From NCBI GenBank assembly GCA_964431835.1, contig CAYSKO010000003.1:53132-117131 (forward strand): a stretch of 64,000 bases of DNA. The letters run 5' to 3'. The position numbers and the translations under genes are program-made. This stretch comes from an uncultured Planctomycetia bacterium (GTDB taxonomy: Bacteria > Omnitrophota > Gorgyraeia > 2-02-FULL-51-18). This document shows positions 15,866-51,163 of this stretch, piece after piece. The notes under the pieces were generated by a model. That model worked only from the letters and a program-made list of their open reading frames with translations. It had not been told where the DNA came from and did not search any database. Position 1 is the stretch's first letter. Every line of letters starts with the position of its first letter.

Positions 15866-15921
15866 GTTATACGCCTAGAGCGATTAAAATATGGTTAAAA
15901 TGAAATTAGAACTTTTTAATC
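15866..15921 (-). promoter_or_regulatory. copy A of the 55-bp AT-rich stress element (promoter/operator candidate for the DUF2383 gene)
   Basis: TTATACGCCTAGAGCGATTAAAATATGGTTAAAATGAAATTAGAACTTTTTAATC on the plus strand. The egtD stop codon (TGA 15920-22) is embedded in the TTTTTAATC arm. On the coding strand TATAAC lies 33 nt before the ATG. Confidence 0.5.
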
Positions 15922-16894
15922 AAGCGTTCGTGAGGAAAAATAAGCCGAAATACTCGTTTTCGTCGGTCCACACTTCCTCGAGCTCAAGATCCGCGGCCAG
16001 CGCCAGACGCCGGAATCCGTCCACGTCGTATTTGTGACAGCGTTCCGTCAATATCGATTCCCCTTGTCCGAACCGGAACGTCTCCCCGTCGATCGTCGCG
16101 ATCTGCTCGCACGCACTCACCAGCCGCATCTCCACACGGCCTTCGCCCTCCGCGTAGACGGCCTCGTGCCGGAAATTATCCACGCGAATATCGCCGCCCA
16201 GCTCCCGGTTGATGCGAACGAGCAAATTCAGATTGAATGCGGACGTCAGCCCCTCTCGGTCGTCGTAAGCGCGCTCTAGAATCTCCCGCGGTTTCTTTAA
16301 GTCCACTCCGATGAGCAGGCCACCATTTGGATGGCAAAGCCTCGATATTTTCTCGAGAAGCTCGCGGGCTTGGGACGGTTCGAAGTTGCCGATCGTGGAA
16401 CCGGGGAAATAAACGATTTTGCGCGTCACGTAGCCGCCACACGGCGGTAGCGCGTAGAAATCGACAAAGTCGGCGAACACCGGGCAGACGTCGAGTCCCG
16501 GATAGGCGGTCGCAAAGCGCCGGGCCGTCTCGACCAGCGCGCCGCGGGCGATGTCGATCGGGACATAGCCGGCGGGAGACTGCATGCGGTCGAGAAGAAG
16601 CCGGGTCTTTCTCCCGGAACCGCTGCCGTATTCCACGAGCAGGCAGTCGGTCCCCATTCGCCCAACGATGTCGTCGATGTTCTCGCGCATGATCTTCGTC
16701 TCCACGCGACCGACGTAATAATCGGGGGTGTCGACGATGCGCTCGAAGAGCCACGACCCGCGTTCGTCGTAGAAATACTTGCACGGCAACTCTTTCTTCG
16801 GAAGGCGCAGACCGGCTAGAACTTCCTCCTTGAACGTCGTCTCCGGAGGAGAGAAATCGTATAACCGGGGCCCTTCGGTCTCCACGCGCATCAT
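15920..16894 (-). CDS. egtD: L-histidine N-alpha-methyltransferase (ergothioneine biosynthesis)
   Basis: YFYDERGSWLFERI, LLVEYGSGSGRKT, and the DUF2260 methyltransferase fold throughout. Confidence 0.85.
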   Translation of the reverse strand: MMRVETEGPRLYDFSPPETTFKEEVLAGLRLPKKELPCKYFYDERGSWLFERIVDTPDYYVGRVETKIMRENIDDIVGRMGTDCLLVEYGSGSGRKTRLLLDRMQSPAGYVPIDIARGALVETARRFATAYPGLDVCPVFADFVDFYALPPCGGYVTRKIVYFPGSTIGNFEPSQARELLEKISRLCHPNGGLLIGVDLKKPREILERAYDDREGLTSAFNLNLLVRINRELGGDIRVDNFRHEAVYAEGEGRVEMRLVSACEQIATIDGETFRFGQGESILTERCHKYDVDGFRRLALAADLELEEVWTDENEYFGLFFLTNA

Positions 16895-18165
16895 GAGCGG
16901 GCGTCCCGGGCGAGCCGGATGCCGGAAAACTGCCAGCGGTCCGACGGGCGGAAAAAATTACGGTACGAGACACGGATGTGGGAGCGCGGCGTCGCGCACG
17001 AGCCTCCGCGGAGAACCATGCGGTTCGACATGAATTTGCCGTTGTACTCCCCGAGCGCTCCGTCGGCTGGACGGAACCCCGGATAGGGAGCGTACGCGCT
17101 CGAGGTCCATTCCCAGACATCGCCGAAAAGCTGGGCGATCCCGCGGCCCCCGGGGGCGCGACGCGGACGGAGCCGCCCGGTTTCGAGAAAATTTCCTACG
17201 ATGCGTTCGGGACCCGCGGCGTATTCCCACTCAAATTCGGTCGGCAGGCGTGCGCCGCTCCACCGCGCGTAGGCGTCGGCTTCGTAAAAACTCACGTGGC
17301 AAACCGGCTCTTCGGGATCTACCGGACGCATCCCCTCCAAAGTGAAATGCCGCCAATCGCGCCCGTGACGCTCCCAGTACAGCGGGGCTTCCCATGTGTG
17401 GGTGCGCACTTCATCCCATCCGTCGGAAAGCCAGAGCTCCGGCCTGCGGTACCCGCCATCTTCGATGAACGCGGCGAATTCGCCGCACGTGGTCGGGCGC
17501 TCGGCCAAAAGAAATTCTTCGCAGCGGACACGGTGCCGCGGGGTCTCGTTATCGTAGGAAAAACCGCTCCCCGAGTGCCCCGCCTCCGTCTCCGCGGCGG
17601 GATACGCGCGCCAGCGCGCAGGCGTCCCGGCGGCCAGCTCCGCTTCTTCTTCGTCCGGCAAACGGTAGGCCGGCCGAAGCGGGTTCGACCCGAAGAGATG
17701 TTTCACGTCCGTCAGAAGGAGTTCCTGGTGCTGTTCCTCGTGATGGAGGCCCGTTTCGACGAGCCGTTCGAGCTCGGAGTCCGCGCCCGTGCCGATGAGC
17801 GCTTCCATTCGCGCGTCGACTGCGGCGCGGTAGCGCATCACTTCCGCGAGCGGCGGACGCGAAAGCAAACCGCGTTCTGCGCGCGGCTGACGTGGGCCGA
17901 GCGTTTCGTAGTACGAATTGAACAGATAGGCGTATTTGGGGTGGAACGGGCGGTGGCCTGAAACGAAAGGAGCGAGAACGAGAGTCTCAAAAAACCACGC
18001 CGTGTGTCCCAGATGCCATTTGACGGGACTCGCGTCGGGCATGGACTGGAGCGCGCAATCCTCGGCGCTCAGCGCCGAGGCGAGGGCCTCCGTGCGGGAG
18101 CGGACCTCCTTATAACGCGACACCAGGAGAAAATCGCAGGTGCGGGCATGCACGGTCGCGGCCAT
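16891..18165 (-). CDS. egtB: ergothioneine biosynthesis sulfoxide synthase EgtB (DinB_2 + FGE-sulfatase domains)
   Basis: DinB_2 N-domain HLGHTAWFFETLVL…HHEEQHQELLLTDV, then an FGE-type C-domain. Stop overlaps the egtD start (ATGA). Confidence 0.85.
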   Translation of the reverse strand: MAATVHARTCDFLLVSRYKEVRSRTEALASALSAEDCALQSMPDASPVKWHLGHTAWFFETLVLAPFVSGHRPFHPKYAYLFNSYYETLGPRQPRAERGLLSRPPLAEVMRYRAAVDARMEALIGTGADSELERLVETGLHHEEQHQELLLTDVKHLFGSNPLRPAYRLPDEEEAELAAGTPARWRAYPAAETEAGHSGSGFSYDNETPRHRVRCEEFLLAERPTTCGEFAAFIEDGGYRRPELWLSDGWDEVRTHTWEAPLYWERHGRDWRHFTLEGMRPVDPEEPVCHVSFYEADAYARWSGARLPTEFEWEYAAGPERIVGNFLETGRLRPRRAPGGRGIAQLFGDVWEWTSSAYAPYPGFRPADGALGEYNGKFMSNRMVLRGGSCATPRSHIRVSYRNFFRPSDRWQFSGIRLARDARS

Positions 18166-37130: not shown

Positions 37131-37176
37131 AAAAAACCGCCCGCACCGGGGTTCCCGGTGCGGGCGGCTCTTTTTT
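37131..37176. terminator. bidirectional Rho-independent terminator (nuoN plus-strand / treT operon minus-strand)
   Basis: AAAAAACCGCCCGCACCGGGGTTCCCGGTGCGGGCGGCTCTTTTTT: a 13-bp GC stem flanked by an A-run and a T-run. Confidence 0.8.
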
Positions 37177-37186
37177 CGGAAAGACT

Positions 37187-38422
37187 TTAAGAGAGGCTGA
37201 CGCGGTCTCCTTCGTGGAAGAGCGAGAGGAAAAGCAGCATGTAATCGCGCAGGTGCCTCGTGAGGAGGAAGTTCTGCCGCACGTGCTCGCGGCCGTTCTC
37301 CCCCAGCTTTTGGGCGAAGGCGGGTTCCTGAAGGAGCTGTTTCAGCCAGTAAGCGGTTCCCTCGATCGAATGCGTGAGAATCCCCGAGTGCTTGTGCGTG
37401 ATCTGGAGCGGAATGCCTCCGACCGCGCTCGCGATGACCGGCTTTCCCTTCCACAAGGCCTCGGTGATCGTAAGCCCGAAACCCTCCTTCAGCGATTTTT
37501 GGAGGATCACCGTCGACACCCGCTGGATCGCGTTAATTTCGAGATGGCTCGTCTGCGGCAAAAGCATGATGAGGATGTCGGGATTGTTCCCGACCTCATT
37601 CTTCACCTCGGCCAGCACCTCGGCGCCTTCGGGATCGTCGGCCGCCGTGCCCCCCACGAGGAGGAGACGCGCGTCGACGTAATCCTGAACCTGCTTGAAC
37701 GCGCGCACCACGCCCACGGGATCCTTCAGCCGGTCGAAACGCGAAACCTGCGTCACGAGCGGCTTGTCGAGGGGGATGCCGAGGCGACTGATGATCGCGT
37801 CGATCTCCTCCTGCGGCAAATCGCGGTTCTTCTCCGCGAGCGGGTCGATGGACGGCGAGATGAGGGCCTGCGGAATCGAGAGGCTTTGCGCGAAGATCGG
37901 GGCCGAGAAAACCGAGCTGTCGTAGGACTCGATGAACTGCTTTAAGAACGACCAGAGCCCGGGATCGGGGTTCGAGACGTCCACATGGCAGCGCCAGACC
38001 CATTTGTTACCCATTTTCTTTTTCCTCTGGACAAGCCCCGCGGGCTGGAGATCGTGCACGAAGATGATGTCTTCGTCGAGCGGCATGGCGGCGAGATTTT
38101 CCTCCTGCACCGCCATGAACGTGTCGTAATCGCGTAGCTCGAAGTGCTGGGGCGTTCCGTGAAGCGCGTTGTGCATTTTTTTCGTGACGGCGTAGAAGGC
38201 CTCCCCGCCCTTGATTACGTCCCACTTGGCGTCGACGCCGAGTTCCTGAAAGAGCGGAATCATGCGGTTCAGGATCTCCGCCACGCCGCCGCCGACGGCG
38301 GTCGAATTGATATTGAGTATCCGTTTCCCCTGGAGCTGCCGCGCGAGAAGCCGGATCTCGTCCATCACCTGCTTGCCTACGATCGGCTCGTAATCGCTTA
38401 AGGTCGGTTTAAGCCGTGACAT
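37187..38422 (-). CDS. treT: trehalose synthase, glycosyl-transferring (TreT, GT4)
   Basis: Strong resemblance to archaeal/bacterial TreT: DYEPIVGKQ…INSTAVGGGVAEIL, WRCHVDVS, SPSIDPLAEKN, VTQVSRFD, DDPEG, KEGFGLTITEALWKGKPVI. Confidence 0.8.
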   Translation of the reverse strand: MSRLKPTLSDYEPIVGKQVMDEIRLLARQLQGKRILNINSTAVGGGVAEILNRMIPLFQELGVDAKWDVIKGGEAFYAVTKKMHNALHGTPQHFELRDYDTFMAVQEENLAAMPLDEDIIFVHDLQPAGLVQRKKKMGNKWVWRCHVDVSNPDPGLWSFLKQFIESYDSSVFSAPIFAQSLSIPQALISPSIDPLAEKNRDLPQEEIDAIISRLGIPLDKPLVTQVSRFDRLKDPVGVVRAFKQVQDYVDARLLLVGGTAADDPEGAEVLAEVKNEVGNNPDILIMLLPQTSHLEINAIQRVSTVILQKSLKEGFGLTITEALWKGKPVIASAVGGIPLQITHKHSGILTHSIEGTAYWLKQLLQEPAFAQKLGENGREHVRQNFLLTRHLRDYMLLFLSLFHEGDRVSLS

Positions 38423-39849: not shown

Positions 39850-42120
39850 CTAAAGGATGCGGACGTTGACCGCTTGCGTAGGGTGAAGATCGAGGCGCAC
39901 GCCCGCCAGCTCGTGGATGAGGTCGGCTGCCCAGCGGTACACGTTACGGTCCTTGAGAAGCGCGCGCATGCGGCGCATCCGCTCTTCCTGCTCGTGGGGC
40001 CGCATGAGAAGCGCGGTGCGGATCGCCTCGGCCGTCTGCGCCGTGTCGTAAGGATTCACGATCACGGCGTCGCTCAGCTCCCGGGCCGCCCCAGTGAACT
40101 GGCTCAAGATGAGGACGCCCCGCTCGTCCTGCCGTGCCATCACGAATTCCTTGGCCACGAGATTCATGCCGTCGTGGAGCGACGTCACCATGCAGACGTC
40201 GGCTCCGGCATAGAACGGGGCGATGTCTTTCTGGCTGTGATGTTTCTTGAGAAGCAGGATCGCCTTCCAATTCTTCGCCTTGAAGCGGGCGTTGATGCGT
40301 TCAGCCTCCCGCTCGACCTCGTACACGAATTCCTGGTACTTCTGAATGAGCGACCGGCTCGGCGCCCCGAGCTCGACGAACGTGAAGCGGCCCTGGTATT
40401 CGGGGTTCTTTTCGAGGAAGTGTTCCACCGCACGGAAGCGCTCAAGGATGCCCTTTGTGTAATCAAGCCGGTCGACGCCGACTCCGACGAAGTCCGCCGT
40501 GATTCCGTAGGGCTTAAGGAGCTCCGTTTTCGAGACCGGCGCCGTCGCCGGGCTTTCGCCGCCGGAAAACGCGATGCTAATCGGGAACGGCTTGATCCAG
40601 GTCGTGTGTCCTTCCCGGTTGACGTTGAAATGCTCGTAATCGATGCGGCACTCGAGGATCCGGTCCACCGTTTGCACGAAGTTGTTGCAGTGGTACTGCG
40701 TGTGGAAGCCGATGAGGTCGGCGCCGAGCATGCCGTCCAAGACTTCCTGCTGCCACGGGCAAATGCTGAACGATTCCGGGTTCGGCCAAGGGATATGCCA
40801 GAAAATGGCCACGCGCGCGTCGGGGCGCTCGGCTTTGATGAGCCGCGGCAGAAGCGCGAAGTGGTAGTCCTGGATGAGCACGCAGGGCTCGGACGTGCCC
40901 TCGAGCTCCTGGAGAAGCGCCTTTGCGAATTTCTTGTTCACCGCTTCGTACGCCTGCCAGTCCGTTTCGCGGAACGTGGGACGCGTGTGGGCGACGTGGC
41001 AAAGAGGCCAGAGCCCCTCGTTCGAAAATCCGTAATAGTAGCCGGCCTCTTCTTCTTTGGTGAGCCAGACGCGGCGGAGGGTGTACTGCGGCTCCTCGGG
41101 CGGCACGCGCAAGCGGTCCGACTCGTCTACGGTCTCGCGGTCGGCGTCGCCGTTGCCCTCGGCGATCCAGGTACCGCCGCACGCCTTGAGAACGGGCTCG
41201 AGCGCGGTCACGAGTCCGCTCGCGGGGACGACGCACTCGATTTCCTTGCCCTTCTTCACGTGCTGGTAGGGCTCGCGGTTCGAGACAACGAAGAGCGGGC
41301 GGCCCTGGAGCTTCAAGCGGACGAATTCCTTTAAACGTTCCGGCGTCCAGAGTGACTCCGACGACTGGCGCAGACGCGCTTCTTCCTCAGCCGCCTCGCG
41401 GGCTTGGACGAGACTGATGGCGAGCTTCGAGATTTCCTTGGCGATTGGACCCAAGAGGCGCTCTTCGGCCGGCGAAAGCTGGTCTGGCTTCGCCTCGCCC
41501 ATGCGGACTTTCTTGATCCAGTCGGCGGTCTTGCGTATCGGACGCATCACGTTGAGATAAAAAACGCCGAGAGTCGTCGCGGAGACGAGCACCCAGATAA
41601 CCGCGATGCGGAGCAGGTTCATGAGCCAGATGCGGCGCAGGCGCTCGTGGATGAAGCCCGCTTTGTGAAAGACGGTGACGGCGTATTCGCCGGCGCCGGT
41701 TAGGACCGGCGTGGAGTAGGCGTGGATATCCCGCTCGCCGAGACGCATGAAATCGCCGGCCGGACGCCCCTGGCGGACGGCGGTCTGAACGACGTCCCGC
41801 ACCGCTTTGGGCGATTCGGCCGCGCCGAACACGCCCGAGGACCCGGCCACGAGGCGACCGTCCTTGTCGTGCACGCAGAGCCCGAGAAGATCCTCGCGGT
41901 TCGAAAATTCGTCGGCGATGGGCGCCAGTTTCTCGAGGTGCCCTTCGGCGAGCGCCGGACGGACGGCTTCACGGAAGCTGTCGGCCAAAAGCCCGGCGTT
42001 TCGTTCGAGCTCCGACTTGAGCCGCGCTTTTTCGGTCCGGACCTGCCAGAGCGAAGAAACGATGAAGAGCGCAGCGAGAACCAGGAGCAAAGTTACGATA
42101 AGTTTTAAAGTAGCCCGCAC
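39850..42120 (-). CDS. otsA: trehalose-6-phosphate synthase (GT20 OtsA) fused to an N-terminal ~270-aa two-TM periplasmic sensor module with a HAMP-like linker
   Basis: TM1 [21 protein letters not shown], a ~150-aa extracytoplasmic segment, TM2 [28 protein letters not shown], and a linker. The GT20 core starts near [31 protein letters not shown], with GFFLHIPFP-equivalent FWHIPWP and the C-terminal catalytic region. Confidence 0.75.
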
Positions 42121-45776: not shown

Positions 45777-46298
45777 TCACGCTTTTTTCCTCGCGGCGAG
45801 GCCGCAGGCTTTCGTGTTGAGGTGCTGCACGAGCGCGGTCGCCAGCATGGCGAGGAGAACCGACGCGCCGAAATAATAAACCCCTGGGAGCGGTTTCGCT
45901 TCGGCGAGCGCGCCGAGTTTGACGGCCACGATCAGGACGGCCACGATGAAGACGTCGAGCATCGACCACTTGCCCAGCAAAGATAGCCCGTTGATCACCC
46001 GGCTGCGCAGCGTCTCCCCGAGCGGCACGAACCACGCGCACGTGAGCATCGCGAGTTTCGCGATCGGAAAGATCACGGAAAAAAAGAAGACAAGCACCGC
46101 AAGGGAGAGGTGGCCGTCGTCGCGAAGCGCTTGGATGCCTTCCAGGATGGAGAAAGTATTCTGCTTCCAAAGCTTCCTGACCGTGAGGATCGGCATGTTG
46201 AGGCCGCGGTACAGAAGCCAAGCCGAAGCTGCGAGAATCAGCGGCACGTCGGGGCGAAGCGGAAAAAAACCGCAAAGCGGGCGCTTTGCGGTTTTCAT
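45777..46298 (-). CDS. PqiA-family (paraquat-inducible protein A-like) integral membrane protein
   Basis: 173 aa with four TM helices and the PqiA pattern …ILTV…LW…FSILEGIQAL…GHLSLAVLVFFFSVIFPIAKL…. Start overlaps the GIY-YIG stop (ATGA). Confidence 0.55.
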   Translation of the reverse strand: MKTAKRPLCGFFPLRPDVPLILAASAWLLYRGLNMPILTVRKLWKQNTFSILEGIQALRDDGHLSLAVLVFFFSVIFPIAKLAMLTCAWFVPLGETLRSRVINGLSLLGKWSMLDVFIVAVLIVAVKLGALAEAKPLPGVYYFGASVLLAMLATALVQHLNTKACGLAARKKA

Positions 46299-46558
46299 CG
46301 GATCGCACCGGCCGAAGCGGCCAGGCGAAGCTTTCCCGTACGGTCGAGACGGCGTATCTGCGCTTCGCGTTTCAAGGCCGCGGAACGGTCGGGGACGTCT
46401 TCGCGGTAAACCACGCGTAGAGGGCGGTTATATGCGGTGTAGCGCGCGCCCCCTTTGGAGTGCTCTGCGAAACGCCGGTCGACGTCGGTGGTTACGCCCG
46501 TGTACAGCGCGCGGTTGGCGCATTCGATCATGTACACGTACCACGGGCCGCCCGGCAC
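46295..46558 (-). CDS. GIY-YIG nuclease-family protein (UPF0213/YhbQ-like)
   Basis: WYVYMIECANRALYTGVTTDVDRRFAEHSKG. The in-frame GTG at 46558 gives an ~88-aa protein of typical size; the long track ORF 46295..47032 is Arg-rich upstream. Confidence 0.6.
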   Translation of the reverse strand: MPGGPWYVYMIECANRALYTGVTTDVDRRFAEHSKGGARYTAYNRPLRVVYREDVPDRSAALKREAQIRRLDRTGKLRLAASAGAIR

Positions 46559-46989: not shown

Positions 46990-47324
46990 CGCCGGCTGCT
47001 CGTGCCGAGAATGAAACCGAGCAGGACCGCACCGGCCGCGACGCCGCCGATATACGGCCACGGATTGCGGTGCACTTCGCGGTCCAAGTCCTCGGCCGCC
47101 TGTTGGATTTTTTCCTGGCCCTCTTCGAGACGTTCGGCCGCGACGCGGCGCACCTGGTTCATCACGTCCTTATTGTTGACCGCGACTTCGGTCAGCGTCT
47201 CGCGGATCGTGGAGTATTTTTCGCCCAGAAGCCGGCGGAGCTCGTCTTTTTTGTCTTTGGCGGCTTCGTTGAGGAGCTGGAGGGCTTCGTCGATCTTGCG
47301 GTTCGAATTTAGAGTTTCAGACAT
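46986..47324 (-). CDS. DUF883 family stress protein (ElaB/YqjD/YgaM-like, ribosome-associated membrane anchor)
   Basis: 112 aa. C-terminal NPWPYIGGVAAGAVLLGFILGTSSRR is the DUF883 hallmark. Confidence 0.75.
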   Translation of the reverse strand: MSETLNSNRKIDEALQLLNEAAKDKKDELRRLLGEKYSTIRETLTEVAVNNKDVMNQVRRVAAERLEEGQEKIQQAAEDLDREVHRNPWPYIGGVAAGAVLLGFILGTSSRR

Positions 47325-47386
47325 GGCTTTCTCCTTAGCGTGTTTGAGAATGGATCCTGTCCTGACTTTCCTTGGTGCAGACCCCT

Positions 47387-47415
47387 ATTTTACACCCCGA
47401 GGAGGGTTTACTCAA
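47387..47415 (-). promoter_or_regulatory. sigma70-like promoter TTGAGT-N17-TAAAAT upstream of the elaB-like operon
   Basis: Minus-strand reading …TTGAGTAAACCCTCCTCGGGGTGTAAAATAGGGG… lies 62 nt upstream of the ATG at 47324. Confidence 0.4.
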
Positions 47416-47451
47416 TCGAAAAGGAGGCGGAAAACCCTGAATTTGCTGCTC

Positions 47452-48330
47452 TTACGAAACCACGACCCGTAAGGGCTTGCCGGTAGCGGCAATTTCGAGT
47501 TCGGAGCCGTACGGAAAGGCGTGGCGCCGGTGAGCGCCGTCCGGAAAGATCGCGCCTTCACGCATGAGCGACCTAAGAAGTATCCTTCGGTCGGCCCCCA
47601 GAACGCCGCCACGCAGGCGGTAACCGTAACGATTCGCGTAATAAAGCTCTCGGGGAACGTATTGGAAGTAGCTCGAAGCGACTGCAAGGGCTCGGCCGCC
47701 GGCCGAAAACGCGGCTCCCGTGGACCCAGCTGCGGTGGCGACCCATACCCCGGAGCTGCGATGCTGTTCGCGGCGCTTCCCTACGGCGATCACGTAATGG
47801 CTCATCGCGGCCGGATTCGAATGCGCTACGAGAACGTCGTTCAGGACCGGCTCCTTCAGCGGACGCCCGTCGAGGCGAAGCGAGAGGCGCGCGGCCTCGA
47901 CCACTTTCGCCTTCCCGTCCAGAAGCCGGTCTAGGATGCGCGCGAACGAACGGCGGTCGGCACGGCATAGTTTGCCGACGCTGTGATTGGGGTCCGAATT
48001 CACGCCCAGAACAGGCTGTCGGTCCACGGAACGCGCCGCCTCGAGGAGCGTGCCGTCGCCTCCGACCGTCACGATGAAACCGTACCGCTCGACGCCGTGA
48101 AGCTCCCCGCGCGTTTTGGCTTCGACCGAGAGTCCGCGCTCCTGAAGAGCCGAAAGCACTTCGCGGACGGTCCCGTAGTGCTCGGCGTGCGAACGCTTAA
48201 GATGGGCGAGGTTCACGTCCCCCGCCTCGAAGGCGCGTTTCAGCCCCGAGGGCTTGTACTCGTCGAAATAGGCTTCGTAAGCGCTCTTCTTGTAAGCAAC
48301 GAGCACGCGGCCGGGACGGAATTTGGGCAT
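47452..48330 (-). CDS. nadK: NAD(+) kinase
   Basis: GGDGTLL and NxGxLGF-type motifs. 292 aa. Confidence 0.85.
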   Translation of the reverse strand: MPKFRPGRVLVAYKKSAYEAYFDEYKPSGLKRAFEAGDVNLAHLKRSHAEHYGTVREVLSALQERGLSVEAKTRGELHGVERYGFIVTVGGDGTLLEAARSVDRQPVLGVNSDPNHSVGKLCRADRRSFARILDRLLDGKAKVVEAARLSLRLDGRPLKEPVLNDVLVAHSNPAAMSHYVIAVGKRREQHRSSGVWVATAAGSTGAAFSAGGRALAVASSYFQYVPRELYYANRYGYRLRGGVLGADRRILLRSLMREGAIFPDGAHRRHAFPYGSELEIAATGKPLRVVVS

Positions 48331-48367
48331 ACATCAGTATCACAAAGGAGGGGTTGCGAAGTCAAAC

Positions 48368-48452
48368 GGGAGCGAGGCGTAAGCTCTCGCCGTCTACGGA
48401 ACTCCGAATACGTCGTTCCTTGTACGACGGCGAGAGCTTACGCCTCGCTCCC
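48368..48452. repeat. long hairpin 1: 27-bp perfect stem GGGAGCGAGGCGTAAGCTCTCGCCGTC / GACGGCGAGAGCTTACGCCTCGCTCCC with a 31-nt, itself near-palindromic, apical segment
   Basis: Read from the sequence. Lies in the 273-bp non-coding leader between DUF488 and nadK. Confidence 0.8.
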
Positions 48453-48481
48453 TTCCGCAAAGGGATTCGACATGGGCAGAA

Positions 48482-48562
48482 GGAACGGGTGGGGTGTTTC
48501 GGCTTCGTACGAGGAACGACGTATTCGGAGTTCCGTAGAAGCCGAAACTCCCCACCCGTTCC
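48482..48562. repeat. long hairpin 2: 25-bp stem (one mismatch) GGAACGGGTGGGGTGTTTCGGCTTC / GAAGCCGAAACTCCCCACCCGTTCC whose 31-nt apical segment is the reverse complement of the hairpin-1 apex
   Basis: Read from the sequence. Apex 48507-48537 (GTACGAGGAACGACGTATTCGGAGTTCCGTA) versus 48395-48425 (TACGGAACTCCGAATACGTCGTTCCTTGTAC). Confidence 0.8.
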
Positions 48563-48566
48563 GGAA

Positions 48567-48615
48567 CCTATTTTCTATGCGACTTTATATTTTTGAATTT
48601 CGATTAGAATTTGAA
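48567..48615 (-). promoter_or_regulatory. degenerate copy of the AT-rich stress element at the DUF488 stop / nadK leader
   Basis: CTATGCGACTTTATATTTTTGAATTTCGATTAGAATTTGAATTC. The DUF488 stop (TAA 48604-06) is embedded in GATTAGAA, as in the other copies. Confidence 0.3.
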
Positions 48616-49137
48616 TTCGGCCTGCTCAGGCGGGTAGAGAACGCGTTCGCGGTCGAGTTTCGCGAAAGGGGTGAGCTTGTGTTTCTGTGCGGTTTTTCCG
48701 GAGATGACGTGGAACACTTCGACGCCGCGCGCCGTCAGCGCGTCGGACAAGAGTGAACGGTGGCAGCGCCACGGCACGGACTCGGCGCACAGGACGGCGG
48801 CCGGACCTTTATCGGCGTTGAAGGAAAGGAGCGCGTCGAGAGCGCGGCGGAACTGCGGGGTTTCCATGTGATCGGCGTAGCCGCGGAAGGAATCGCTCTT
48901 CCATCCCCCGTTGGGCGAATCGGGCCGGGGACGGCGACGGCCGCCGAGATCGGGGAAATGTAGATAGGCGATGCCAGAGGGAGCGAGCTCTTCCGGAAGG
49001 GTGCGGATGTCGTACTGCGGGTGGCGCTTCGAGCGGGGAATCAGACGAACATCGGCCAGCGCCTTCACGCCGCTCGCTTCGAGGAGCCCGACGAGCTCTC
49101 CGAGCGGGCGCGTGGAATGGCCGACCGTGTAGATCAA
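48604..49137 (-). CDS. DUF488 family protein
   Basis: A probable TTG start at 49137 overlaps the response-regulator stop (TTGA). N-terminus (M)IYTVGHSTRPLGELVGLLEASGVKALADVRLIPRSKRHPQYD matches DUF488. The longer track ORF would overlap the RR gene by 64 nt. Confidence 0.6.
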   Translation of the reverse strand: MIYTVGHSTRPLGELVGLLEASGVKALADVRLIPRSKRHPQYDIRTLPEELAPSGIAYLHFPDLGGRRRPRPDSPNGGWKSDSFRGYADHMETPQFRRALDALLSFNADKGPAAVLCAESVPWRCHRSLLSDALTARGVEVFHVISGKTAQKHKLTPFAKLDRERVLYPPEQAEFKF

Positions 49138-49523
49138 GCCGCGACGGCGGCGGTGATCTTCGAGAGTTCCGACATTTCGATCGGCTTCGAAAGGCATGCG
49201 GTGGGGCGGATATTGAAGCGCTGGAGGAACATTTCGTTCGCAGTCGACGCCGTGAGAACGACCACGGGGACGTTGCGGAGCGCGGGATTGGCCTGGATCT
49301 CGACGATGATCTCGAAGCCGGTGCGCTTCGGGAGATACAGGTCGAGAAGGATGAGGTCGGGACGGTTGTCTTCGGTGAGTCCCTGCACGAGCTCGAACGC
49401 CAATTCGCCGTCCTGGATGACGTCCAGACGGTTGACCATGTCGCTCTCGCTCAGCGTTTCGCGGGTCATTCGCACGTCTTCGTTGTTGTCCTCGATCAGC
49501 AGGATGTTCATTTTACGGGCCAT
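49134..49523 (-). CDS. single-domain response regulator (CheY-like receiver)
   Basis: ORF trimmed to ATG 49523 (MARKMNILLIEDNNEDV). D…DLILLDLYLP phospho-acceptor motif, T and K residues present. No output domain. Confidence 0.75.
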   Translation of the reverse strand: MARKMNILLIEDNNEDVRMTRETLSESDMVNRLDVIQDGELAFELVQGLTEDNRPDLILLDLYLPKRTGFEIIVEIQANPALRNVPVVVLTASTANEMFLQRFNIRPTACLSKPIEMSELSKITAAVAA

Positions 49524-49726
49524 GGCGTGGGACCTTTCTTTGCGGGTTGACCTTGAAAGGACGGATCGTCTGATCGTTAGCAAAAGGCTTTAAGAAGGAG
49601 GAAAACTGCGATTTTCAGATTCGGTACCGGATCGAGCAAAAAAGACGGGAGTCGTGCGGCGGATCGACTTACGGACGATATTATATCATCCGCGGGTCGA
49701 AAAAGAAACCGGATTCTAGGGGGTTT

Positions 49727-51163
49727 TTAGGCGTTTTGCGGAGCCGGAGCGGGCGCTTTGCGCGAATAGACGTGGGTCGCATGGCCATAGAAGGCCTCGG
49801 CGCATTCCATCAGCGTCTCGCCGTACGTCGGATGCGGGTGCACGGTGTTCGCGAGGTCGAATGCTGTCGCGCCCATCTCGATCGCGAGCGCCCCTTCACC
49901 GATCATCTCTCCCGCGCCGGCACCGACGATGCCCACGCCCAGGATACGCTCGGATTCGGCGTCCACGACGAGCTTGGTGAGACCTTCTTTGTCGGTGGCG
50001 AGCGCGCGCCCCGAGGCGCCCCACGGGAACTTCGCGACCTTGACGGCGAGGCCCTTGTCGCGCGCCTCGTTCTCGGTCACGCCGCACCAGGCGATCTCGG
50101 GTTCGGTGAAGACAACCGCCGGAACGATCACGTCCTTAAATTGGTTCTCTCCGCCGAGGATCACGTCGACGGCGACGCGCGCCTCGCGCGCGGCCTTGTG
50201 CGCGAGCATGAGCCCGCCGACCACGTCGCCGATGGCGAAGATATTCGGGTCCGAAGTGCGCTGCTGCGCGTCCACCTTGATGAAGCCCTTCTCGTCGCGC
50301 TGCACCTTCGTGTGCTGGAGGCCGATATCGGAGCAGTTGGGGGTGCGGCCGACGGAAACAAGCACGCGGTCGTAGAGTTCGTCGACCGATTTGCCGCCGA
50401 AATCCATGTGCACCTTGATCTGCTTGCCGCTCGTGGACATCTTGGAAACTTTCGCGCCGAGGCGCACTTCTTTGAAATTCTTTTCCGCGTATTTCACCAC
50501 CGGACGGGCCAGATCGGCGTCGGCGCCGGCGAGAATCGAACCCATCGCCTCGACGAGCGTGATCTTGGAGCCGAGCGATGCGTACACGGTGCCGAGCTCC
50601 ATGCCGATGTAGCCGCCGCCGACGACGAGGAGCTCCTGGGGCACTTCTTCGAGCTCGAGCGCCTCGGTAGAGGTCATGATGCGCTTGTTGCCGAGGTCGA
50701 ACGCCTTGGGAAGCGCGGGCTTCGAGCCCGTCGCCACGATCGCCTTGTCGAACTGGAGGAACTTCTGTCCGTCCGGAGTTTCGACGCGCAGAATCTTAGA
50801 ATCTTCGAACACGCCACGCCCGATCACGACTTCGACGCCACGGGCCTTGGCCAATTGCTGGATGCCGCCGCCCAGTTTCTCGAGAATGGATTCCTTCCAA
50901 GCGCGGAGCTTGTCGATCTTGAGGACGGGCTTGGCGAATTCGATGCCGCGCGCCGAAGAGAGCTCGGCCTCGTGGATCATTTTGGTGGCGTGGAGATACG
51001 CCTTCGAAGGGATGCAGCCGCGGTTTAAACACACGCCGCCGAGACGTTTTTCCTGCTCGATCAGAACGACCTTTCGGCCCTTGTCGGCCGCGTAGAACGC
51101 CGCCGCGTAGCCGCCGGGGCCGGCGCCGATGACGACGACGTCGACCTTCTGGGAGCCCTTCAT
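49727..51163 (-). CDS. lpdA: dihydrolipoyl dehydrogenase (E3)
   Basis: GAGPGGY FAD fold, redox-active disulfide GGVCLNRGCIPSK, and the C-terminal interface domain. Confidence 0.9.
   Translation of the reverse strand: MKGSQKVDVVVIGAGPGGYAAAFYAADKGRKVVLIEQEKRLGGVCLNRGCIPSKAYLHATKMIHEAELSSARGIEFAKPVLKIDKLRAWKESILEKLGGGIQQLAKARGVEVVIGRGVFEDSKILRVETPDGQKFLQFDKAIVATGSKPALPKAFDLGNKRIMTSTEALELEEVPQELLVVGGGYIGMELGTVYASLGSKITLVEAMGSILAGADADLARPVVKYAEKNFKEVRLGAKVSKMSTSGKQIKVHMDFGGKSVDELYDRVLVSVGRTPNCSDIGLQHTKVQRDEKGFIKVDAQQRTSDPNIFAIGDVVGGLMLAHKAAREARVAVDVILGGENQFKDVIVPAVVFTEPEIAWCGVTENEARDKGLAVKVAKFPWGASGRALATDKEGLTKLVVDAESERILGVGIVGAGAGEMIGEGALAIEMGATAFDLANTVHPHPTYGETLMECAEAFYGHATHVYSRKAPAPAPQNA

What the first reader, a model, noticed from the sequence alone, without database searches (positions are those of the whole stretch)
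48331..48603. Two adjacent long perfect hairpins with mutually reverse-complementary apical segments in the nadK leader
The 273-bp non-coding region between DUF488 and nadK contains hairpin 1 (48368-48452; 27-bp perfect stem, 31-nt apex) and hairpin 2 (48482-48562; 25-bp stem, 31-nt apex). The apex of hairpin 2 is the reverse complement of the apex of hairpin 1 (33 of 34 nt with flanks), while the two basal stems are unrelated. Each apex is itself near-palindromic (GGAAC…GTTCC). As RNA on the minus strand this allows mutually exclusive folds, two independent hairpins versus a long apex-apex duplex. That is the logic of an attenuator or riboswitch-like switch. Alternatively it could be a structured sRNA, or a DNA-level site such as an attC-like recombination site or a composite REP. 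A degenerate stress-element copy sits immediately upstream (48567-48615), and nadK has no SD on its own strand. A stem this long and perfect in a GC-rich genome is highly non-random.
Basis: seen in the sequence. Interest (0 to 1): 0.65.

Follow-up and report, generated by a model that had tools for sequence, protein, structure and literature searches.

The report
Orphan pair of long intergenic palindromes
Two very long, near-perfect DNA hairpins with the same tip in opposite orientations really do lie between the DUF488 and nadK genes, but they are a one-off, lineage-specific pair of palindromes upstream of a likely nadK promoter, not a conserved riboswitch-like leader.

Summary
H1 (48368-48452) has a 27/27-bp stem. 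H2 (48482-48562) has a 24/25-bp stem. Each has a 31-nt apex, and apex 2 is the reverse complement of apex 1 (34/35 nt). Folding z-scores are -10 to -13 on both strands.

The switch interpretation fails.
- The apex-apex duplex costs 25-29 kcal/mol more than the two hairpins.
- A sigma-70-like promoter (TTGACT-18-TGtGATACT) lies between H1 and the nadK ATG. It ends 5 nt before the ATG, so nadK is probably leaderless and the hairpins lie outside that proximal transcript.
- Five nadK relatives (53-57% identity) have 0-130 nt upstream and no hairpins. DUF488 and the 273-nt spacer are absent from the syntenic relative.
- There is no Rfam family match.

No further copy turned up in about 80 kb of this genome, in GTDB representative genomes, or in the viral, plasmid and phage collections. 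No transposase or recombinase domain was matched in the window.

All 67 stem pairs are Watson-Crick with no G-U, and both strands fold equally well. That points to DNA-level palindromes.

Best reading: an orphan REP/BIME-like inverted doublet of a ~50-nt hairpin core. Its arms were probably extended and homogenised by template switching. At most it acts as a stem-loop barrier at the 3' end of the RR-DUF488 operon. Interest is low to moderate.

The parts
48368..48452 (.). Hairpin/palindrome H1: 27-bp perfect stem, 1-nt bulge, 3 bp, 2-nt bulge, 5-bp GGAAC/GTTCC mini-stem, 12-nt loop
48395..48425 (+). Apex of H1 (TACGGAACTCCGAATACGTCGTTCCTTGTAC)
48482..48562 (.). Hairpin/palindrome H2: 25-bp stem with one T-T mismatch, same apical architecture as H1
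48507..48537 (-). Apex of H2, the reverse complement of the H1 apex (1 mismatch in 31)
48387..48433 (+). Shared core, copy 1 (47 nt: apex plus top 8 bp of the stem)
   Evidence: I1, 89% complementary to 48499-48545
48499..48545 (-). Shared core, copy 2, inverted
   Evidence: I1
48453..48481 (.). 29-nt unique linker between the hairpins
   Evidence: its similarity to the L021 intergenic region is not significant
48563..48603 (-). AT-rich stretch between the DUF488 stop codon and H2
   Evidence: no second copy in the window
48336..48365 (-). Sigma-70-like promoter TTGACT-18 nt-(TGt)GATACT. The -35 hexamer starts 2 nt after the base of H1 and the -10 ends 5 nt before the nadK ATG, implying a leaderless nadK mRNA.
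   Evidence: nadK has no SD; TTGACG-17-TTAGTC read by eye at the same place in L021
47452..48330 (-). nadK (NAD kinase, 292 aa), downstream neighbour
48604..49137 (-). DUF488 gene (177 aa), upstream neighbour. Its start overlaps the stop of the response-regulator gene. The hairpins lie in its 3' flank.
49134..49523 (-). Receiver-only response regulator (129 aa), first gene of the RR-DUF488 pair

Best explanation
This is a lineage-specific, strand-symmetric pair of DNA palindromes. Two inverted copies of a ~35-51-nt hairpin core (a GGAAC-N12-GTTCC mini-stem plus an 8-10-bp upper stem) are each embedded in their own perfect 15-17-bp stem extension. The pair lies in the spacer that this lineage gained, together with DUF488, between the PDH-E3/response-regulator genes and nadK. 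It lies downstream of the DUF488 stop codon and immediately upstream of a promoter-like site for nadK. Inferred origin: a small palindromic core was duplicated. Its arms were then lengthened and kept perfect, and one loop possibly flipped, by intrastrand replication template switching. That process is known to homogenise and expand inverted-repeat arms and to invert their spacers. Inferred action: on read-through transcripts of the RR-DUF488 operon the two ~35-bp stems form a very stable 3' barrier. It could pause or terminate transcription, block 3' exonucleases, or provide an RNase III substrate, as REP/BIME stem-loops do. This would separate that operon from a separately promoted, leaderless nadK. 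It is not a ligand- or translation-sensing switch. Shown: the structure, its uniqueness, its position, its absence from relatives, and the energetic one-sidedness. Inferred: the origin by template switching and the barrier role.
For: The structure is real and extreme. It is strand-symmetric. Both strands fold about equally well (-146.5 vs -151.3 kcal/mol as RNA; -44/-44 and -36/-36 kcal/mol per hairpin as DNA). All 67 stem pairs are Watson-Crick with no G-U, and the only defect is a T-T mismatch. Only the apex and the top 8-10 bp are shared; the lower stems are at composition-level identity. The position is after the DUF488 stop and before TTGACT-18-TGtGATACT, which ends 5 nt from the ATG. nadK has no SD although its neighbours do. 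No intrinsic-terminator-like site was found in 47300-49700. The insertion is lineage-specific. Relatives show E3-[9 nt]-nadK (L035) and E3-RR-[59 nt]-nadK (L021). They also show nadK overlapping or directly abutting its upstream gene (L019, L034), or 130 nt downstream of it (L022). None has long hairpins. The two-hairpin fold is favoured by 25-29 kcal/mol over the apex-apex duplex. The locus is identical in four other assemblies from independent samples and runs, so it is not an assembly artefact. For the template-switching mechanism, see the abstracts of PMC8604942 and PMC13100816. For long 'a-palindrome-a^c' derivatives of REP doublets, and for REP doublets as inverted pairs, see PMC3337134.
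Against: There is no transcript data, so neither read-through nor a barrier effect is shown. Neither hairpin is followed by a proper U-tract (sequence). The 26-nt identical stretch in the two apexes, next to unrelated lower stems, is not what neutral divergence of a duplication predicts. It hints at sequence-specific constraint, gene conversion or a recent event, which the model does not explain. The promoter call is a consensus match only (9/12 plus TG). No outgroup is close enough to show which arm of each stem is the original flank, so template switching is untested here. Only about 80 kb of the genome could be examined.
Confidence: 0.45

Rival explanations
1. It is a member of a dispersed palindromic repeat family of this genome (REP/REPIN/BIME- or MITE-like). 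The ~50-nt core would be the repeated unit, mobilised in trans by a transposase such as a RAYT encoded elsewhere. The pair would be a REP doublet in inverted orientation.
For: The architecture fits a REP doublet. Two short imperfect palindromes lie in inverted orientation, 65-77 nt apart, in extragenic space at the 3' end of a gene (REPIN definition and spacings such as 71 bp in PMC3337134). That paper also describes long 'a-palindrome-a^c' singlets in a REPIN-bearing genome. Only about 80 kb of the genome could be searched.
Against: There is no other copy in the 64-kb window or in 15.6 kb of flanking sequence, by exact search with up to 3 mismatches, by blastn, or by covariance model. The core is absent from GTDB representative genomes, IMG/VR, plasmids and phages. 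No transposase, RAYT or integrase domain was matched among the window ORFs scanned or in the precomputed gene tables. The spacer between the two cores does not pair with itself as in REPINs; it pairs with the outer flanks. No target-site duplication is visible.
Confidence: 0.2
2. It is a functional structured RNA or cis-regulatory leader of nadK. The two hairpins and the alternative apex-apex duplex would act as a switch, or the 195-nt double hairpin would be an sRNA whose two complementary 12-nt loops kiss.
For: The structure is very stable, with 10 double-sided differences between the two stems that preserve pairing. The two loops on any one strand are perfectly complementary. The region lies on the same strand as, and upstream of, a gene without an SD.
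Against: The alternative fold is 25-29 kcal/mol less stable. There is no strand asymmetry and no G-U pair. A promoter-like site lies between the hairpins and the ATG. No promoter-like site precedes H2 on the minus strand. There is no Rfam family match. The structure is absent from all five related nadK loci. Two sequences cannot show covariation in the evolutionary sense, because the lower stems are not demonstrably homologous.
Confidence: 0.1
3. It is a DNA-level protein recognition or recombination site. The two inverted 35-47-nt cores would be the arms of an invertible segment (inverton). Alternatively they would be binding sites (GGAAC-N12-GTTCC) for a dimeric regulator or recombinase, or attC-like folded sites marking DUF488 as a cassette.
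For: A 35-nt, 97% inverted repeat flanks a 77-bp segment. The 5-mer GGAAC/GTTCC occurs seven times in about 170 nt (sequence). DUF488 plus the spacer behaves as an insertion relative to L021. One low-coverage contig (L024) breaks exactly at the H2 apex.
Against: No recombinase or integrase domain was matched among the window ORFs scanned or in the gene tables. All five assemblies that span the locus (the window, L001, L002, L023 and the partial L024) show the same orientation. The promoter-like site lies outside the segment that would invert. The bases of the stems do not match the attC R''/R' consensus (RYYYAAC / GTTRRRY, from established knowledge; sequence). The closest DUF488 homologue sits in an unrelated context with a 52-nt gap to the next gene and no room for such hairpins. 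The ECF-like GGAAC-N16-CGTA motif occurs only in the two apexes, against 0.73 expected by chance.
Confidence: 0.1
4. It is a neutral by-product with no function at all: a recent replication or repair accident (snap-back or template-switch event) fixed by drift in a nearly clonal population.
For: The pair is unique, not conserved and strand-symmetric, with perfect arms that suggest a recent origin. The population is nearly clonal, with 0.04% divergence over 19 kb.
Against: Long perfect palindromes are generally unstable in bacteria (established knowledge), yet this pair is intact in every sample examined. Two such events side by side sharing the same apex need explaining.
Confidence: 0.15

Closest known systems
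REP / BIME / REPIN elements (repetitive extragenic palindromes; REP doublets forming hairpins)
   Same: Both are short imperfect palindromes in extragenic DNA at the 3' end of a gene. Both occur as an inverted doublet separated by a spacer of a few tens of nucleotides. Both form stable stem-loops in RNA or ssDNA. A role as a 3' mRNA barrier is plausible. Long symmetric 'flank-palindrome-flank^c' derivatives are described in REPIN-bearing genomes (PMC3337134).
   Different: No further copies were found in about 80 kb of this genome, and no RAYT domain was matched. Here the conserved part is the apex and the variable part is the base of each hairpin, whereas in REPINs the conserved REPs pair at the base. 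The spacer between the two cores pairs with the outer flanks, not with itself.
Quasi-palindrome correction, inverted-repeat expansion and spacer inversion by replication template switching
   Same: This process predicts exactly what is seen. The arms are perfect and purely Watson-Crick. They extend into sequence unrelated between copies. The loop can sit in either orientation. No strand is preferred (abstracts of PMC8604942 and PMC13100816).
   Different: It is a mutational process, not an element family. It is documented mostly for shorter arms and in yeast, primates and E. coli model systems. It was not demonstrated here because no close outgroup is available.
Transcription attenuators / riboswitches
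   Same: The region lies upstream of, and on the same strand as, a metabolic gene. Two mutually exclusive pairings can be drawn on paper.
   Different: The alternative pairing is 25-29 kcal/mol worse. There is no terminator-like site, no SD sequestration, no conservation and no Rfam match. The hairpins probably lie upstream of the nadK promoter.
Integron attC sites
   Same: Both are an imperfect palindrome of about 60-140 nt directly downstream of an ORF that behaves as an insertion.
   Different: There are no R''/R' core sites, no characteristic extrahelical bases and no integrase domain matched in the window. The stems are far too perfect. There are two hairpins rather than one per cassette.

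Membership tests
Riboswitch / attenuator leader | Lies in the 5' leader, between the transcription start and the start codon | tested here: inconclusive
   A promoter-like TTGACT-18-TGtGATACT lies between H1 and the ATG and ends 5 nt before it. This is a consensus match only, with no transcript data.
Riboswitch / attenuator leader | Two mutually exclusive folds of comparable stability | tested here: not met
   The forced apex-apex duplex costs +29.1 kcal/mol (minus-strand RNA) and +25.2 kcal/mol (plus-strand RNA) relative to the minimum free energy.
Riboswitch / attenuator leader | An expression platform: an intrinsic terminator or SD sequestration | tested here: not met
   0 terminator-like sites in 47300-49700. 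There is no SD upstream of nadK.
Riboswitch / attenuator leader | Conserved in orthologous leaders, or matching a curated RNA family | tested here: not met
   Five related nadK loci have 0-130 nt upstream and no hairpin. Rfam gives nothing at gathering score. The best sub-threshold hit is a plant miRNA model at 35.8 bits against a gathering score of 140.
REP / REPIN / BIME | Short imperfect palindromes in extragenic DNA, as inverted doublets with a spacer | tested here: met
   The 35-47-nt cores are inverted and 65-77 nt apart, between two genes.
REP / REPIN / BIME | Tens to hundreds of copies per genome | tested here: not met
   No other copy in 79.6 kb of this genome.
REP / REPIN / BIME | The doublet folds as one hairpin, with the REPs pairing with each other and the spacer self-paired | tested here: not met
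   That fold is 25-29 kcal/mol worse. The spacer ends pair with the outer flanks.
REP / REPIN / BIME | A cognate RAYT (Y1 transposase) in the genome | not testable with these tools
   No such domain was matched among the window ORFs scanned or in the gene tables. The whole genome is not available.
MITE | Terminal inverted repeats shared by copies, target-site duplication, multiple copies | tested here: not met
   The stems differ between the two copies. No direct repeat flanks either hairpin or the pair. There are no other copies.
Integron attC | R''/R' core sites (RYYYAAC...GTTRRRY), extrahelical bases, an integron integrase nearby | tested here: not met
   The stem bases read GGGAGCG.../...CGCTCCC and GGAACGG.../...CCGTTCC. 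No integrase domain was matched in the window (and the gene tables). The consensus is recalled from established knowledge.
Intrinsic terminator | A G+C-rich stem with a short loop, immediately followed by a U-tract | tested here: not met
   The scan finds none. On the minus strand H1 is followed by GUUUGACUU and H2 by UUCUGCCC. The genome does contain an inverted repeat with the look of a canonical bidirectional terminator elsewhere, at 37131-37173.
Inverton (invertible promoter) | Inverted repeats flanking a promoter, an invertase nearby, both orientations present in the population | tested here: not met
   The inverted repeats are present. But the promoter-like site lies outside them, no recombinase domain was matched, and every assembly shows a single orientation.

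The most novel reading that the evidence does not exclude
The ~50-nt hairpin core could be an active element of an undescribed kind. One possibility is a foldback-type mobile or self-priming DNA that copies its flank in inverted orientation when it lands (snap-back synthesis). That would explain why each copy carries a perfect but unrelated 15-17-bp stem extension. The other possibility is a protein-recognised apical motif presented on long double-stranded RNA stems, a natural 'short-hairpin' pair with mutually complementary kissing loops, possibly acted on by the adjacent DUF488 protein or by RNase III. The evidence does not exclude either. The 26-nt identical stretch in the apexes next to unrelated stems remains unexplained.
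Probability: 0.07. Interest if true: 0.65.

Novelty: new variant of a known kind. Interest (0 to 1): 0.25.

Why it matters
If the best reading holds, the significance is modest. It would be a clean natural example of how a small palindromic core can grow into 35-bp perfect hairpins in a bacterial intergenic spacer. It also shows how a gene that is fused to the PDH operon in relatives (nadK) can come to sit behind an inserted gene, a structural barrier and possibly its own leaderless promoter. It is also a caution: spectacular hairpins with a drawable alternative pairing need not be switches. It would become important only if the core proved to be mobile by a flank-copying mechanism, or to be a specific protein or RNase target.

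Tried and rejected
- **Rfam:** an E-value search of 48100-48900 and a gathering-score search of the whole window gave only sub-threshold miRNA/SRP-like hits driven by long stems.
- **Core searches in public collections:**
  - The 22-mer was absent from genome contigs and viral contigs.
  - The 18-mer in metagenome contigs gave 16 single hits with no flank similarity, all chance.
  - The stem-only pattern TACGGAAC-N12-GTTCCTNGTAC gave 3 chance hits in genome contigs and none in viral contigs.
  - Caveat: the metagenome collection did not return JGI contig L023, which holds the exact locus, so absence there is weak evidence.
- **Guide-like stems:** 20-21-mers from both lower stems had no match in viral contigs. 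blastn of the whole structure against plasmids and phages found nothing.
- **Past inversion:** the linker resembles the L021 RR-nadK spacer in the opposite orientation (CTTCCGC...AAAGGG..TTGAC), but 80 of 500 shuffles score as well, so this was rejected.
- **ECF-type promoter in the apex (GGAAC-N16-CGTA):** it occurs only in the two apexes, with 0.73 expected by chance, so there is no support.
- **DUF488-plus-hairpin cassette:** the closest DUF488 homologue (61% identity) lies in an unrelated context without room for hairpins.
- **80-aa ORF on the plus strand through both hairpins,** preceded by AAAGGAGGGG: no Pfam match, and the spacing to TTG is 2 nt. Judged spurious.
no second copy, and the derived pattern is at chance.

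Full report
**1. What is in the sequence**

The 273 nt between the stop codon of a DUF488 gene (48604-49137, minus strand) and the ATG of nadK (48330, minus strand) hold two large palindromes.

- H1 (48368-48452) has 27-nt arms that are 100% complementary around a 31-nt apex.
- H2 (48482-48562) has 25-nt arms with one T-T mismatch around a 31-nt apex.
- Inside each apex a further 3 bp and a 5-bp GGAAC/GTTCC mini-stem pair, leaving two small bulges on one side and a 12-nt loop.
- The H2 apex is the reverse complement of the H1 apex: 1 mismatch in 31, with 0 matches expected in shuffles, and 35 nt at 97% by blastn.
- Similarity runs on for 47 nt at 89%, so the top 8-10 bp of the stems are shared, with two differences compensated on the other arm.
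- The lower 15-17 bp of the stems are no more alike than two G-rich sequences would be by composition (my own count).

Folding is far beyond chance. For the region as RNA, z is -13.3 (minus strand) and -12.4 (plus strand). For each hairpin as DNA, z is -10 to -13.5. Nothing comparable exists elsewhere in the 64-kb window. The same sequence, base for base, is present in two Logan assemblies and a JGI metagenome contig, and in the part of a second JGI contig (L024) that reaches the locus. It is therefore not an assembly artefact.

**2. Is it a switch in the nadK leader?**

Five lines of evidence say no.

- *Energetics.* Forcing the apex-apex duplex costs 29.1 kcal/mol (minus-strand RNA) or 25.2 kcal/mol (plus-strand RNA) relative to the two-hairpin fold. 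In addition, each hairpin would close before the second apex is transcribed.
- *Position.* The promoter scan finds TTGACT-18 nt-GATACT, preceded by TG, on the minus strand at 48365-48336. The -35 hexamer begins 2 nt after the base of H1, and the -10 ends 5 nt before the ATG. nadK has no Shine-Dalgarno sequence, whereas many neighbouring genes carry AAGGAG-type ones. A leaderless nadK mRNA starting at or next to the ATG is therefore the simplest reading. The hairpins then lie upstream of the promoter, in the 3' flank of DUF488. This rests on a consensus match only. By eye, the syntenic relative L021 has TTGACG-17-TTAGTC at the corresponding place.
- *Expression platform.* No intrinsic-terminator-like site occurs in 47300-49700, and there is no SD to sequester.
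- *Known families.* Rfam gives nothing at gathering score. The sub-threshold hits are miRNA-precursor and SRP models that simply like long stems.
- *Conservation.* The nearest nadK relatives available are only 53-57% identical, from MAGs labelled Ca. Eisenbacteria or Omnitrophota. Their upstream arrangements differ from the window:

| Locus | Arrangement upstream of nadK |
|---|---|
| L035 | PDH E3, 9 nt, nadK |
| L021 | E3, response regulator, 59 nt, nadK |
| L019, L034 | nadK overlaps or abuts the upstream gene |
| L022 | 130-nt gap |

None has a long hairpin. DUF488 and the 273-nt spacer are thus an addition in this lineage.

**3. Is it a dispersed repeat or a mobile element?**

No further copy was found by any of these searches:

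- exact search with up to 3 mismatches;
- short-word blastn;
- a covariance model built from the two hairpins.

These covered the window plus 15.6 kb of flanking sequence from the same genome, 79.6 kb in all.

The core is also absent from GTDB species representatives, in two scans: an exact 22-mer and a stem-only pattern that returned 3 chance hits. It is absent from IMG/VR and from plasmid and phage records. In the JGI metagenome collection it gave only 16 chance hits. That collection did not return the JGI contig that carries the locus, so its silence carries little weight.

The window encodes housekeeping functions. These include ExbB and a TonB-dependent receptor, glycogen debranching enzymes, EgtD/EgtB-like proteins, complex I subunits, trehalose synthesis, the PDH complex, Amt/P-II and MscS. 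No transposase, RAYT, integrase or reverse transcriptase domain was matched among the ORFs scanned or in the precomputed gene tables. No target-site duplication flanks either hairpin or the pair.

**4. What kind of object is it?**

Three properties point to DNA-level palindromes rather than an RNA shaped by selection on one strand.

- Both strands fold equally well.
- All 67 stem pairs are Watson-Crick, with no G-U pair. In a selected RNA of this size several G-U pairs would be expected (my inference from general knowledge).
- The one defect is a symmetric T-T / A-A mismatch.

Because a perfect palindrome has no orientation, only the apex shows that the two copies are inverted.

The pattern is a shared core with perfect but unrelated stem extensions. 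Replication template switching between inverted-repeat arms produces exactly this. It homogenises arms, expands them into flanking sequence and can invert the spacer (abstracts of PMC8604942 and PMC13100816).

The overall layout matches the REP-doublet layout described for REPINs: two short imperfect palindromes in inverted orientation, 65-77 nt apart, in extragenic DNA behind a gene. The genome studied in that work also holds long symmetric 'a-palindrome-a^c' derivatives (PMC3337134). This pair differs from REPINs in four ways:

- The conserved part is the apex, not the base.
- The spacer pairs with the outer flanks instead of with itself.
- No other copies were found.
- No RAYT domain was matched.

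**5. Most likely mechanism**

I commit, at about 45%, to the following. This is an orphan REP/BIME-like inverted doublet of a ~50-nt hairpin core, with arms extended and kept perfect by template switching. It lies at the 3' end of the RR-DUF488 transcription unit.

If it does anything, it acts on read-through RNA as a very stable double stem-loop of -56 to -73 kcal/mol per hairpin. Such a barrier could pause or stop RNA polymerase, block 3' exonucleases, or offer an RNase III substrate. That would insulate a separately promoted, leaderless nadK.

The structure, its position, its uniqueness and its absence from relatives are shown. The origin and the barrier role are inferred.

What this model does not explain is why 26 nt of the apex are identical in both copies while the lower stems are unrelated. 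That contrast could reflect a recent event, gene conversion, or sequence-specific recognition of the apex.

**6. Rivals**

- Unsampled dispersed REP/MITE family: 0.20.
- Functionless recent accident: 0.15.
- Structured RNA or switch: 0.10.
- Protein or recombination site, including inverton or attC-like: 0.10.

Specific sub-ideas were tested and dropped:

- an ECF-type promoter in the apex;
- a past inversion inferred from linker similarity to L021;
- stems as guides against viruses;
- a DUF488-hairpin cassette;
- a plus-strand 80-aa ORF.

**7. Verdict**

The feature is real and statistically extreme, but it is an isolated, unconserved, strand-symmetric palindrome pair. The riboswitch/attenuator interpretation is not supported. 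It is best filed as a new variant of the extragenic-palindrome kind, not as a member of any described family. Interest is 0.25. The most novel reading still open is a flank-copying foldback element, or a protein-recognised apical motif on dsRNA stems. Its probability is about 0.07, and its interest if true would be about 0.65.

Noticed in passing
window 48336-48365 (minus strand); L021 2964-2992: nadK appears to have its own sigma-70-like extended -10 promoter, ending 5 nt before the ATG, and it has no SD. This suggests a leaderless mRNA. By eye, a similar TTGACG-17-TTAGTC sits 8 nt before the nadK ATG in the syntenic relative L021.
   Followed up: partly
window 47452-51163 versus L035, L021, L019, L022, L034: Gene content between PDH E3 and nadK varies among relatives: E3-nadK with a 9-nt gap, E3-RR-nadK, and here E3-RR-DUF488-hairpins-nadK. 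In some relatives nadK looks like the last gene of the PDH operon. The two small ORFs after nadK (112 and ~140 aa, no Pfam family) are conserved in every relative.
   Followed up: partly
window 45777-46558 (minus strand): A small GIY-YIG protein gene (87 aa) and a PqiA-domain gene (173 aa) lie between the 140-aa ORF and the pyrophosphatase gene. Both are absent at that position in L021 and L019, making this a second lineage-specific insertion in the same gene row.
   Followed up: no
L024 (JGI Ga0226658_10146386), end of contig = window 48537: A 1,086-nt metagenome contig stops exactly at the boundary between the stem and the apex of H2. This is consistent with an assembly-graph break or a coverage drop at the inverted repeat. 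It could also hint at structural heterogeneity.
   Followed up: no
window 48563-48625: An AT-rich stretch (about 25-30% G+C by eye, in a ~62% G+C window) straddles the DUF488 stop codon and contains GAAnnTTC-like repeats.
   Followed up: partly
window 48344-48356 and 48354-48596 (plus strand): A strong SD-like AAAGGAGGGG lies on the strand opposite to nadK, 2 nt before a TTG that opens an 80-aa ORF running through both hairpins. The ORF has no Pfam match. It was judged spurious, since it is the complement of the promoter spacer.
   Followed up: partly
window 37131-37173: A 20-bp G+C-rich stem with a 3-nt loop, flanked by A-rich sequence on one side and T-rich on the other, lies between the convergent complex I (nuoN-like) and trehalose synthase genes. 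It looks like a canonical bidirectional intrinsic terminator and shows what ordinary terminators look like in this genome.
   Followed up: no
window 15920-18165 (minus strand): Adjacent EgtD-like (histidine-specific methyltransferase) and EgtB-like (FGE-sulfatase/DinB) genes suggest ergothioneine biosynthesis. Together with the trehalose genes (37187-38422; 39850-42120) and MscS, the window is rich in stress- and osmoprotection functions.
   Followed up: no
Metagenome-contig collection versus L023: The DNA-pattern scan of metagenome contigs did not return the JGI contig Ga0163144_10006106, which contains the exact 18-mer twice. That collection therefore does not cover every JGI metagenome reachable through the look-up of encoding contigs, and negative scans there are weak evidence.
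   Followed up: yes
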